Below are positions 33,801 through 36,800 of a DNA stretch of 64,000 nt, piece by piece (position 1 is the stretch's first letter; each line of letters opens with the position of its first letter). Position numbers: made by a program. Location of the stretch: NCBI RefSeq assembly GCF_001677475.2, contig NZ_CP015229.1. The stretch is one strand, 5' to 3'. The stretch is from Escherichia coli. GTDB taxonomy: Bacteria; Pseudomonadota; Gammaproteobacteria; Enterobacterales; Enterobacteriaceae.

Positions 33801-36800
33801 AGCGCCTTTTAGATCAGAAGTCAACGTTACATGGTCGGCATCTGTCGTAGCACTTCCCCCTTCCGGGTAGAGCCACGGAATGGTCCCCTGGAAAATATTG
33901 GTTTCGCCGCTGTCGACCCAGGCGCTGTCTTCTGCCAGCGCCACAGGTGCCACACAATAACCTGCCAGTGCCAGCGCCAATGCGATCCGGGTCAGACCGC
34001 GTCTTTTATCCTGCTTCATTGATGCTCTCCTTAATGAACCTTCAGCGACTGGCCGACTGGCCTTACGCCAATCTTATTTTTTGGTATACAGCACGCGTAA
34101 ACCGTATCCCTGCAAGCCATCTCCCGCTTGTGCGCCATAGATTTGCGACGCTTCGCGGTTAGTGGCCGGAATCACAATGTCCTCATTGGATGTGTTCGCC
34201 TGTGCACCCACTTCACCATTGATGCTCTTGCCGGTAAATTCCCACTTGTAGTCGTACTGCGCCATCTCTTCGTCAGTCAGTTTTTCGACCTGCTGGAAGA
34301 CACCGTCTTTATTGCTGTCACGCCACAAAACAAATCGATAAGTGTTGTTGAGCGGCAGCGGTTCTTTATCTTTACCTATCAGGTTGCTGGGTTTAGCCGC
34401 CCCCACACGATAGATAAATGCATTTAGCCCACCAATTTCTGCCCCGAGGAAAGTGACATCCACATAGTTACTGTCGTCGTAGGGCGCAGCTTTTGCTTTC
34501 CAGCGATAGGTGCCGGGTAAGGTACTGGAGAGGGTGACAGTGCCCTTTTCTTTATCTTGTTTAGCGATAAAAACGCAGGGGTTGTCGGTCGAGCAAGGCT
34601 TGTTGGTTAACGTCACTCGTTTGTCCTGCGCGTCGTAAAGCTGCGGCGTGAGGTTATCTTCCGGCAGCGCATCGCCATTGCGGTCGGTGTTATCGCCAAA
34701 GCTGTCGGTTACATCGAGATCCATCACCACACCATCAACGCCATCTGCCTGAGCGCTGGCTTCGTGGCTGTGGTTGTTCTCTTCTGGCACGTTCGCGATG
34801 TTATTAACAATCAACTCTATTTTACGGTCCTGCTGAACGGTGATTTCCACCACGCCAGAGTTCTGTCGGTTGCCCTTTTCATCTTCCAGCGCCAGACGTA
34901 CTCGCCAGGTATTGAGTTTTTCTTGTTCGGCTTTGTCAGAGCTGTACTGCCAGGCGGGCAGCACCAGGTTCCAGTGGTTATTGTTACCCTCTTTCAGGGT
35001 ATTCTCTTTGATAACCGGCATAACCAGCGTGCGGGCAGCATTGTTTTTCGCCTGCCATGACGCAGCGACAATTTTGTAGTGGTGGTTGATAAGCGCGTTA
35101 ATGGTCCACTTACATTTTTCCAGCCCGACCGCCGCTTCAGGCGTGTCTTTAATGACGCACTCAGGGTGTTCGTTGGTGGCATCCGCTTTTAACCACAGGG
35201 TGACATCAAGCGGATCTTTTTCTTTGTATTCCAGAACAATAAAGTTATTACGCTCAACAAAATCATGACGACTGCCCATCAACGAGTGAGCCGCTTTCAC
35301 TTTATCGCTATCCAATTGATCTTTTAGCGGAACGCCGAACTGATAATTAAGAGTGGCATTAATGCTGACATCGCTGTTATCTCCGGTCCCCGCTTTATAG
35401 TCCGCCCCAACGGTTAGTAATGGCACCGGTTGATAATTCAGTCCAAGTGTTACCGCGTAGGGATCTTTCTCCAAATTATCCGTACCAAAAAGGGCGACTT
35501 CATCGCCGTAATATTGCTCGAAGACAACTTTGCCCCCCAGTTGCGGATAAGAAGGTAACCAGGCTTCGGCACGAATATCCCAGCCGCGCGCAGGGCGTTC
35601 TTCATAAAAGTCGAAATCTTCAGAGTCTTTCCAGTCAGAAAGCGGATGATAATAGTTGCCAGAGAATTTTAAATAATCAGTCCACGCTTCGCCGCCTAAA
35701 CCTAAACGGCGATGTCCTCGGGTAAAATCATAATCATAAAATATATTTCCACCCAATAACCATTCATTAAAATTATGTCTTACCCCAAGACCAATATTCC
35801 CGATTGTACGATCTTCTTTTCGTTGCGCAGAAAATTGACTGAAATAAACAGTGGTTTGATTATCGTACCAGGGAACAAAATAATCGATGGAACTGCCATC
35901 CAGATCGCCGCCCTGGCCAATGGAGAGGTTCGAACGGACCTTACCGTAGGGAGAGAGTGTGTCTTCAATATAAGATTGTGCGGTTGAGGTGATTTGACTT
36001 TGCAGATAGCTTCTGGCCTGAGATTCCAGCGCCTCAGGGGTCAAGTTTTCAAACCCTTGCGTGGCGGAGTTGATGACGTAATCGGCTCCGCGCTCTTTCA
36101 GCGATTTACCCTTGTTGGTTTGTTCATCCTGCTGTGCTGCCTGGCTACCTAAATCAGGTAACGATTCGTTTTGCTTAACATTTATCTCTGGTGCTGCGAA
36201 AGCAGCACCAGAGATAAATGTTAGCATAATACAGCGTTCCCATCGCAGCATGCACTTTCCCTGTGACAATGATACAGTCCAAAATAAGCTTTAATATTGT
36301 ATCCCTGATTATTCAGAAAGGCATGTCATAAAGAGTAAATATATTCTTAATTATTTAAATTAGTGATTTCACTCAAATACATTAGTTATTCCACTAATAA
36401 CAGATTGTTTTACCATTCACATATTAAATATAAATGATAAAACAATATATTCACATGATATTAAGCAATAACAAATTCAACGCGTTTTTTAGATATTAAA
36501 CCGTGCCCATGTTGGCAGAAATAGTCCACAGCACCACAAGCTTTTAACACTTGTAACGGCTGATGACACTCAGGGCAAAGTGCCTGGACGGTAAAGTCTT
36601 TGTCGCAAGTTGCACAGTGGGCAGTCTCGCCATTGCGTTCGAGAGGGGTTTTGCAGGTTGGACAGTTGAGTGCCATAAATACTCCTCGCGCGTTATTCGG
36701 TTTCCCTTTCCGTGTGGAAAGGGAAACCAGATAAGTGATTACTTACTTTTCTTGATATGCTTCATCAGGCGCTTACGCTTGCGCATCTGGGTTGGCGTCA

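What the first reader, a model, noticed from the sequence alone, without database searches (positions are those of the whole stretch)
36270..36460. Extremely AT-rich leader upstream of sinH
The 190 bp between the yfgJ stop and the sinH start is dominated by A/T runs (for example ttaattatttaaattagtgatttc and attaaatataaatgataaaacaatatatt), far below the GC of flanking genes. That is typical of horizontally acquired promoters silenced by H-NS. The sinH promoter and any dedicated regulator site should lie here.
Basis: inference. Interest (0 to 1): 0.3.

Follow-up and report, generated by a model that had tools for sequence, protein, structure and literature searches.

The report
AT-rich promoter region of sinH adhesin
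The very AT-rich 209-bp gap in front of the E. coli adhesin gene sinH is real and is most likely its normally silent, activator-dependent promoter region; that is an ordinary kind of feature, already partly studied, which I mapped more precisely by comparing species.

Summary
Observation confirmed. All genes here are on the minus strand. The yfgJ stop–sinH ATG spacer is 36252-36460 (209 bp).

Interpretation partly supported.
- The promoter very probably lies here. In five genera, a 16-bp element (TTMRGMWTDNATTTAS; window 36335-36350, minus) is followed after exactly 33/34 nt, or 22 nt in two taxa, by a -10-like TAnAAT (window TACAAT, 36301-36296).
- The predicted start is near 36289, about 38 nt before the start codon.
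- Goh et al. 2019 studied this gene as iatB. It is silent in the laboratory, and LeuO over-expression raises its mRNA about 15-fold. LeuO commonly counteracts H-NS, so this fits silencing, but H-NS itself was never tested.
- No copy of the published H-NS nucleation motif lies in the spacer.
- The "horizontally acquired" premise is weak. The island genes have 48-52% GC, and yfgJ–spacer–sinH sits at this locus in all five genera.

The part next to yfgJ holds a hairpin that probably marks the der–yfgJ transcript end.

Seen in passing: a 22-bp perfect hairpin inside the sinH signal-peptide codons (36176-36223), kept by compensatory changes.

Ordinary feature; low novelty.

The parts
36461..36676 (-). 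yfgJ (71-aa double zinc-ribbon protein), sinH-linked allele
   Evidence: ORF. It is annotated as a zinc-ribbon protein in L001 and matches Pfam Zn_ribbon_6 in orthologous loci. It is only 66% identical (nt and aa) to the K-12 allele, while der is 97% identical.
36252..36460 (-). AT-rich yfgJ–sinH spacer (25.4% GC; 23.0% over 36270-36460)
   Evidence: K-12 has no counterpart: homology resumes at 36460.
36399..36451 (-). AT-rich hairpin just after the yfgJ stop. It probably marks the 3' end of the der–yfgJ transcript. It is not a canonical intrinsic terminator.
   Evidence: Inverted repeat I2. Folding energy -24.3 kcal/mol, z = -4.8. A hairpin of different sequence sits at the same place in most orthologues. 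The terminator scan found no G+C-rich stem with a T-run.
36356..36398 (-). Two 18-bp direct repeats (36356-36373 and 36378-36395) with small palindromes: AGTGA-TT-TCACT at 36362-36373 and ATTAGT-N6-ACTAAT at 36381-36398. These are candidate protein-binding sites, conserved only within Escherichia.
   Evidence: (family D1) and the alignments. The binding function is inferred only.
36335..36350 (-). Conserved 16-bp upstream element TTAAGAATATATTTAC (consensus TTMRGMWTDNATTTAS), predicted to lie at about -46 to -61
   Evidence: Apart from the ribosome-binding region, it is the only spacer block conserved across five genera. It occurs once in the 64-kb window.
36319..36324 (-). Weak -35-like hexamer ATGCCT (3 of 6 matches), 17 bp upstream of the -10
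   Evidence: Position-weight-matrix ranking. The matrix values came from memory and were used only for ranking.
36296..36301 (-). Predicted -10 hexamer TACAAT (TATAAT in two other E. coli haplotypes)
   Evidence: A TAnAAT-type hexamer lies exactly 33/34 nt downstream of the conserved element in 11 lineages. The background frequency of such hexamers is 2-7% per position.
36287..36291 (-). Predicted transcription start (about 36289), giving a 5' UTR of about 38 nt
   Evidence: Inferred from the -10 position. Not mapped experimentally.
36255..36262 (-). Shine-Dalgarno region AGGGAAAG
   Evidence: Read from the sequence. ACAGGGA is conserved across genera.
34074..36251 (-). sinH (725-aa intimin-like inverse autotransporter; called iatB by Goh et al.)
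36176..36223 (-). 22-bp perfect stem with a 4-nt loop inside the signal-peptide codons of sinH (mRNA +29 to +76)
   Evidence: Inverted repeat I1. Stem-loop about -41 kcal/mol; the 140-nt 5' region folds with z = -6.8. On alignment A2, 89% of cells pair against 31-48% for slid controls, 8 pairs changed on both sides, and 0 of 500 shuffles reached the observed values. RNAalifold finds a 13-bp core.

Best explanation
The 209-bp spacer (36252-36460, read on the minus strand) is the regulatory region of the sinH–sinI adhesin operon.

- **yfgJ-proximal 60 bp.** This part forms an AT-rich hairpin that most likely marks the 3' end of the der–yfgJ transcript.
- **Promoter.** The rest carries a weak sigma-70 promoter: -10 TACAAT at 36301-36296, a poor -35 (ATGCCT), a predicted start near 36289 and a 5' UTR of about 38 nt.
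- **Conserved element.** Upstream of the -35, at about -46 to -61, sits a 16-bp element (36335-36350). Its distance to the -10 is fixed at 33/34 bp, or one helical turn less in two taxa. It is therefore probably contacted by an activator, an anti-silencer or the RNA polymerase alpha subunit on one face of the helix.
- **Silencing (inferred).** With a weak core promoter in 23% GC, TpA-rich DNA, the default state is off. The most likely repressor is H-NS coating this tract. This step is not shown.
- **LeuO (shown in the literature).** Expression needs an antagonist or activator, and LeuO over-expression raises the mRNA about 15-fold. Whether LeuO binds here is not shown.
For: - AT-richness and TpA enrichment.
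- Promoter footprint: the -10-like hexamer lies at a fixed 33/34-nt (or 22-nt) distance from a 16-bp element in Escherichia, Salmonella, Citrobacter, Pseudocitrobacter and Superficieibacter, although the DNA between them cannot be aligned.
- The element is unique in the window.
- The AT-rich spacer of 200-345 nt between yfgJ and sinH is conserved in all taxa examined.
- Literature: a chromosomal iatB::lacZ fusion is silent. All 12 up-mutants over-express leuO. A LeuO plasmid gives about 15-fold more mRNA (PMC6714894).
- That strain's promoter-proximal 100 bp is nearly identical to the window's.
- 78% of E. coli LeuO targets are co-regulated by H-NS (PMC6698644).
- No Rfam family matches the spacer. 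Its only ORFs are three short plus-strand ones of 21-24 aa, which I did not examine further.
Against: - There is no direct H-NS evidence for this promoter in anything I could read.
- There is no match to tCGATAAATT with 2 or fewer mismatches in the spacer.
- A strict consensus promoter scan finds nothing here. AT-rich DNA offers several alternative -10-like hexamers, for example TATATT 92 nt upstream of the ATG.
- The -35 is poor.
- Goh's lacZ fusion was chromosomal, so it cannot rule out read-through from der–yfgJ.
- LeuO may act indirectly.
- The AT-rich tract is short (about 250-350 bp) and the flanking genes have average GC, so H-NS spreading would be limited.
Confidence: 0.6

Rival explanations
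1. The region is a plain activator-dependent promoter with no role for H-NS. The core promoter is simply too weak (poor -35). It fires only when a specific activator, LeuO or an unidentified factor, binds the conserved 16-bp element and recruits RNA polymerase. The AT-richness would then reflect promoter, UP-element and activator-site composition.
For: The element sits at a classic activator or UP-element position and keeps helical phase with the -10. There is no H-NS nucleation motif. The flanking genes have normal GC. Positions -57 to -47 match the distal UP-element consensus at 8 of 11 positions; that consensus is recalled from memory and is a lead only.
Against: GC of 23% over about 200 bp is far beyond what a single site needs. 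The whole spacer is AT-rich in every genus, although most of it is not conserved in sequence. That pattern points to selection on composition, as expected for binding by a nucleoid-associated protein. Most LeuO-activated loci in E. coli are H-NS-repressed.
Confidence: 0.2
2. sinH is transcribed mainly by read-through from the der–yfgJ operon. The AT-rich spacer would then act as a conditional (Rho-dependent or hairpin-based) terminator or attenuator rather than as a promoter.
For: yfgJ and sinH are on the same strand and about 200 bp apart in every taxon. A conserved-position hairpin follows the yfgJ stop, but it lacks a G+C-rich stem and a U-run. Goh's fusion was chromosomal.
Against: The -10 hexamer at fixed spacing from the 16-bp element is hard to explain without a promoter. 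der is an essential housekeeping gene (established knowledge), yet sinH is silent in culture, so read-through must be small. In Salmonella the spacer grows to 333-345 nt through added sequence next to yfgJ, while the element-to-ATG distance stays at 82 nt, within a base or two of the 80-84 nt in most E. coli lineages.
Confidence: 0.12
3. The tract is a composition scar of a recently acquired island: an attachment or junction remnant with no function of its own.
For: K-12 lacks the whole sinH–sinI–adhesin block, and homology to K-12 resumes exactly at the yfgJ stop. Only about 31-32% of complete E. coli genomes carry the segment.
Against: The same yfgJ–spacer–sinH–sinI–adhesin–xseA arrangement occupies the same locus in five genera. 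The island genes have genome-average GC. The spacer contains conserved, position-locked elements.
Confidence: 0.03

Closest known systems
iatB (= sinH) promoter of E. coli SMS-3-5, activated by LeuO (Goh et al. 2019, mSphere, PMC6714894)
   Same: It is the same gene at the same locus. The spacers match at 171 of 209 positions, and the -35, -10 and 5' UTR parts are nearly identical. The gene is silent in culture and is induced about 15-fold by LeuO over-expression.
   Different: That study did not map the promoter or a LeuO site and did not test H-NS. The window carries a different haplotype, which differs mainly in the part next to yfgJ.
H-NS-silenced, counter-silenced promoters of other inverse-autotransporter adhesins: fdeC (H-NS and temperature, Easton 2014, cited) and Yersinia inv (H-NS/RovA; from general knowledge)
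   Same: These are also surface-adhesin genes of the intimin/invasin family with an AT-rich upstream region. They are off in standard culture and are switched on by an H-NS antagonist.
   Different: H-NS dependence has been shown for those genes but not for sinH. The antagonist here is LeuO, and it may act indirectly. Here only the spacer is AT-rich, not the gene.
LeuO/H-NS-controlled cas (CRISPR-Cascade) promoter of E. coli (Fragel et al. 2019, PMC6698644)
   Same: It is a cryptic promoter in AT-rich DNA that needs ectopic LeuO to fire.
   Different: At cas, a 19-bp palindromic LeuO core site (7-5-7) has been footprinted. I could not retrieve its sequence, so I could not test for such a site here. 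The palindromes at 36362-36398 have other geometries (5-2-5 and 6-6-6).

Membership tests
H-NS (xenogeneic-silencer) target promoter | AT content well above the genome average over roughly 200 bp or more, rich in TpA steps | tested here: met
   GC is 23.0% against 51.7% (z = -5.6). TpA steps are 13.5% against 4.4%.
H-NS (xenogeneic-silencer) target promoter | H-NS occupancy in vivo or in vitro (ChIP or footprint) | not testable with these tools
   No ChIP data were accessible. The supplements of Lucchini 2006 and of the LeuO ChIP-seq paper are not held.
H-NS (xenogeneic-silencer) target promoter | Derepression in an hns mutant | not testable with these tools
   Goh et al. 2019 did not report it (H-NS appears only in the reference list).
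H-NS (xenogeneic-silencer) target promoter | High-affinity nucleation motif tCGATAAATT (Lang et al. 2007). This is helpful but not obligatory. | tested here: not met
   No match with 2 or fewer mismatches lies within 36252-36460. The nearest matches are at 35878 and 37175.
H-NS (xenogeneic-silencer) target promoter | Relief by a known counter-silencer | tested here: inconclusive
   The literature shows that LeuO over-expression raises iatB/sinH mRNA about 15-fold. Direct binding and dependence on H-NS were not shown.
Sigma-70 promoter | -10 hexamer with A2 and T6, conserved in position | tested here: met
   TACAAT (TATAAT or TAAAAT in orthologues) lies 33/34 nt downstream of the conserved element in 11 lineages.
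Sigma-70 promoter | -35 hexamer 16-18 bp upstream | tested here: inconclusive
   ATGCCT matches at 3 of 6 positions with a 17-bp spacer. The strict scan finds no promoter. This fits an activator-dependent promoter.
Sigma-70 promoter | Mapped transcription start | not testable with these tools
   I found no transcription-start data for sinH in the papers I read.
Intrinsic (Rho-independent) terminator, considered for the hairpin after yfgJ | G+C-rich stem followed by a U-run | tested here: not met
   The stem is A-U rich and is followed by CUGUUAUUAG. The terminator scan gives 0 hits. A stable hairpin is present (z = -4.8), and hairpins recur at this position in orthologues.
LeuO (LysR-type) operator | [quoted passage not shown] | tested here: inconclusive
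   The consensus letters are not in the held text. The local palindromes are 5-2-5 and 6-6-6. T-N11-A occurs trivially often in AT-rich DNA.
Rfam RNA families (sRNA, riboswitch or leader) | Match at the gathering score | tested here: not met
   Only sub-threshold microRNA-type hits appear, caused by the hairpins.

The most novel reading that the evidence does not exclude
The sinH 5' region may be a deeply conserved two-layer switch.

1. The 16-bp element, locked to one helical face 33/34 bp (or 22 bp) upstream of the -10, would be the operator of a dedicated activator not yet identified. It would be neither a LeuO site nor a generic H-NS site.
2. The 22-bp hairpin inside the signal-peptide codons would gate translation or mRNA stability, for example as an RNase III substrate.

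Together these would explain why LeuO-induced sinH mRNA yielded no detectable protein in Goh et al. 2019.
Probability: 0.25. Interest if true: 0.5.

Novelty: new member of a known kind. Interest (0 to 1): 0.28.

Why it matters
SinH is being developed as a vaccine antigen against extraintestinal pathogenic E. coli, and it is reported to be up-regulated during human urinary tract infection (PMC9937491). Yet nobody can switch it on in culture.

A concrete promoter map gives testable handles for finding the natural inducing signal:
- a -10 at 36301-36296,
- a 16-bp conserved element at 36335-36350,
- a conserved hairpin in the mRNA.

The feature is otherwise a routine example of an AT-rich, normally silent virulence promoter.

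Tried and rejected
1. **Strict promoter and terminator scan of 35900-36900.** It gave no hits, so I replaced it with a matrix ranking and phylogenetic footprinting.
2. **Rfam scan.** It returned only spurious microRNA-like hits on the two hairpins.
3. **H-NS nucleation motif.** It is absent from the spacer.
4. **The island carries its own yfgJ and has moved to another locus in Citrobacter.** This idea came. One search refuted it: der and bamB lie just upstream, with two extra genes inserted between der and yfgJ.
5. **The AT tract as an island junction scar.** I rejected this because the arrangement is syntenic across genera.
6. **Direct H-NS or LeuO occupancy data for Salmonella sinH (STM2517).** The only text hit is an intragenic sigma-54 site. 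The supplements of Lucchini 2006 and of the 2026 LeuO ChIP-seq paper are not held. Shea 2022 is not held.
7. **The LeuO consensus sequence.** I could not obtain it from the held texts.
8. **RcsAB-box resemblance of the 16-bp element.** The match is 11 of 14 positions in E. coli and 10 of 14 in Salmonella, against a consensus recalled from memory, and the conserved right half does not match. I kept it only as a lead.
9. **Dam-dependent or invertible-switch phase variation.** I saw no GATC when reading the spacer, and the orientation is collinear in all eight haplotypes aligned.
10. **A second promoter candidate, ATCACT-18-TATATT (-10 starting 92 nt upstream of the ATG).** It is conserved within Escherichia, but its -10 is not kept in other genera.

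Full report
**1. What is at the coordinates**

The window is an E. coli chromosome segment. It is 99.2% identical to strain 23AR0806 over the query region. Around the finding, every gene runs on the minus strand:
- ispG–hisS–yfgM–bamB–der (36739-38250)
- yfgJ (36461-36676)
- sinH (34074-36251)
- sinI (33042-34019)
- a 2680-aa adhesin gene (24879-32921)

xseA (23435-24811) converges from the other side. The sinH start is the ATG at 36251, as in RefSeq. The real spacer is 36252-36460, 209 bp.

**2.

- The stretch 36270-36460 has 23.0% GC. The window average is 51.7%, sinH has 48.4% and yfgJ has 46.8%.
- Only 0.125% of 191-bp windows are as AT-rich (z = -5.6). Only one other part of the window, two adjacent stretches within 18168-19018, compares.
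- TpA steps are three times enriched. A-tracts are few, so nothing suggests classical phased-A-tract curvature.

**3. Evolutionary context: a conserved regulatory region**

K-12 lacks the whole sinH–sinI–adhesin block. There, the stop codons of xseA and yfgJ overlap, and homology to the window resumes exactly at 36460. About 31-32% of complete E. coli genomes carry the segment.

Three observations argue against recent acquisition:
- The island genes have genome-average GC.
- The same order, der–(two extra genes in Citrobacter)–yfgJ–AT-rich spacer–sinH–sinI–adhesin–xseA, occupies the same locus in Escherichia (including E. albertii and E. whittamii), Salmonella, Citrobacter, Pseudocitrobacter and Superficieibacter.
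- The spacer is 200-242 nt in most taxa and 333-345 nt in the main Salmonella lineages. Its GC is 23-34% everywhere.

The AT-richness is therefore a maintained property of this intergenic region, not a footprint of recent foreign DNA.

**4. Anatomy from phylogenetic footprinting**

Eight E. coli haplotypes, 72-98% identical to the window, and 16 further lineages show that most of the spacer cannot be aligned between genera. Three blocks survive:
- **A 16-bp element.** Its consensus is TTMRGMWTDNATTTAS. In the window it reads TTAAGAATATATTTAC at 36335-36350 on the minus strand. It occurs once in the 64-kb window.
- **A -10-like hexamer of the TAnAAT type.** It lies exactly 33 or 34 nt downstream of the element in 11 independent lineages. 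It lies 22 nt downstream, one helical turn less, in Superficieibacter 1612 and Escherichia sp. MOD1-EC7003. Such hexamers occur at only 2-7% of positions in these spacers. In the window it is TACAAT (36301-36296). Two other E. coli haplotypes and most Salmonella and Citrobacter lineages have TATAAT.
- **The ribosome-binding region** ACAGGGA.

From these I predict the following layout:
- a transcription start near 36289
- a 5' UTR of about 38 nt
- a poor -35, ATGCCT
- the conserved element at about -46 to -61

At that position the element could be a site for an activator, an anti-silencer or an UP-like contact that needs a fixed helical phase. A strict consensus scan finds no promoter, which fits activator dependence.

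**5. The part next to yfgJ**

Directly after the yfgJ stop lies a 19-24-bp A-U-rich hairpin (36399-36451; -24.3 kcal/mol; z = -4.8). Most orthologues have a hairpin of unrelated sequence at the same place. It lacks a G+C-rich stem and a U-run. I read it as the 3'-end structure of the der–yfgJ transcript, not as a canonical terminator. Between it and the conserved element lie two 18-bp direct repeats with small palindromes (36356-36398). These are conserved only within Escherichia.

**6. How it probably works**

Goh et al. 2019 (PMC6714894) studied this gene as iatB in strain SMS-3-5:
- No protein was detected under any laboratory condition they tried.
- In a transposon screen with a chromosomal iatB::lacZ fusion, all 12 up-mutants drove leuO expression.
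- A LeuO plasmid raised iatB mRNA about 15-fold, yet the protein stayed undetectable.

The SMS-3-5 spacer matches the window's at 171 of 209 positions and is almost identical from the -35 to the ATG, so these results should carry over. LeuO is the classical co-regulator and antagonist of H-NS: 78% of its E. coli targets are H-NS co-regulated (PMC6698644). Other adhesins of this family, such as fdeC, are H-NS-repressed (cited).

The best-supported model is a weak promoter embedded in AT/TpA-rich DNA, kept off by H-NS and opened by LeuO and/or the factor that recognises the 16-bp element.
- **Shown here:** composition, conservation and the spacing logic.
- **Shown in the literature:** silence in culture and the LeuO effect.
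- **Inferred:** H-NS binding, direct LeuO binding and the exact start.

One point counts against a simple H-NS story. The published nucleation motif tCGATAAATT (PMC2094087) has no match with 2 or fewer mismatches in the spacer.

**7. Rival explanations**

- A purely activator-dependent promoter without H-NS (0.2).
- Read-through from der–yfgJ, with the spacer acting as an attenuator (0.12). The position-locked -10 and the silence of sinH beside an essential gene both count against it.
- A junction scar (0.03). The synteny refutes it.

**8. A second finding outside the coordinates**

Inside the sinH signal-peptide codons there is a perfect 22-bp stem with a 4-nt loop (36176-36223; mRNA +29 to +76).
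- The stem-loop has about -41 kcal/mol. The 140-nt 5' region folds with z = -6.8.
- It is perfect only in this strain. All Escherichia lineages and Pseudocitrobacter still keep the pairing, through G-U pairs and true compensatory changes.
- In E. albertii the compensatory changes even alter amino acids (F to L and N to S).
- On alignment A2, 89.4% of cells pair against 31-48% for slid controls. Eight pairs changed on both sides, and 0 of 500 shuffles reached the observed values.
- RNAalifold independently returns a 13-bp core with 5 covarying pairs.
- Citrobacter keeps a 10-12-bp version. The main Salmonella lineage shows no such hairpin in its lowest-energy fold.

No U-run follows the hairpin, so it is not an attenuator of the intrinsic-terminator type. 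It lies just beyond the initiating ribosome. A role in translation rate, membrane targeting or RNase III-dependent mRNA decay is possible. Such a role could relate to the gap between mRNA and protein seen by Goh et al., but this is speculation.

**9. Verdict**

The feature is an ordinary instance of a known kind of regulatory region that is already partly characterised. What is new here is the promoter map and the conserved hairpin in the coding region.

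Noticed in passing
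window 36176-36223 (minus strand, inside sinH codons 10-26): A perfect 22-bp stem with a 4-nt loop lies in the signal-peptide coding region. Escherichia, Pseudocitrobacter and, in shorter form, Citrobacter keep it through G-U and compensatory changes, some of which alter amino acids. Its function is unknown. It may bear on the reported lack of SinH protein despite LeuO-induced mRNA.
   Followed up: partly
window 36461-36676 (yfgJ) and 24535-24811 (3' end of xseA): The core genes flanking the sinH block are unusually diverged from K-12. yfgJ is 66% identical (nt and aa) and the last 277 nt of xseA about 71%, against 97% for der and 93% for the 5' part of xseA. The N-terminal half of the sinH-linked YfgJ resembles the Salmonella type. 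These look like old haplotypes linked to presence or absence of the block.
   Followed up: partly
window 36693-36734 (der–yfgJ intergenic): A 19-bp-arm hairpin (89% complementary) lies between the der stop and the yfgJ start. K-12 has a hairpin of different sequence at the same place (the alignment). It may be a conserved structure within the der–yfgJ transcript.
   Followed up: no
L002 (NZ_CM143910) 2805-3999 and L011 (NZ_CM169472) 553-3295: In some E. coli genomes, IS5-like ISKpn26 and IS1 elements have inserted into the yfgJ–sinH spacer or the 5' part of sinH. They truncate yfgJ and/or sinH, so this region is a recurrent target for insertion sequences.
   Followed up: no
window 18168-19018: This is the only other part of the window as AT-rich as the finding (minimum 19.9% GC). 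It lies between the 747-aa minus-strand ORF (15898-18141) and the ORF at 18995-19513 (yfgH by synteny with K-12). It may be another silenced or divergent promoter region.
   Followed up: no
L033 2156-2300 (Salmonella enterica, after the yfgJ stop): The main Salmonella lineage has about 130 extra nt of G+C-rich sequence inserted right after yfgJ. It is palindromic and resembles a REP (repetitive extragenic palindrome) element, with motifs such as CTTATCCGGC. This lengthens the spacer to 345 nt, while the distance from the 16-bp element to the ATG stays at 82 nt, within the 80-84 nt seen in most E. coli lineages.
   Followed up: no
Search result (E. coli genomes): Most genomes showed two "places" for the 311-bp query. 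The likely reason is that the 48-bp palindrome matches itself on both strands. I did not verify this.
   Followed up: no
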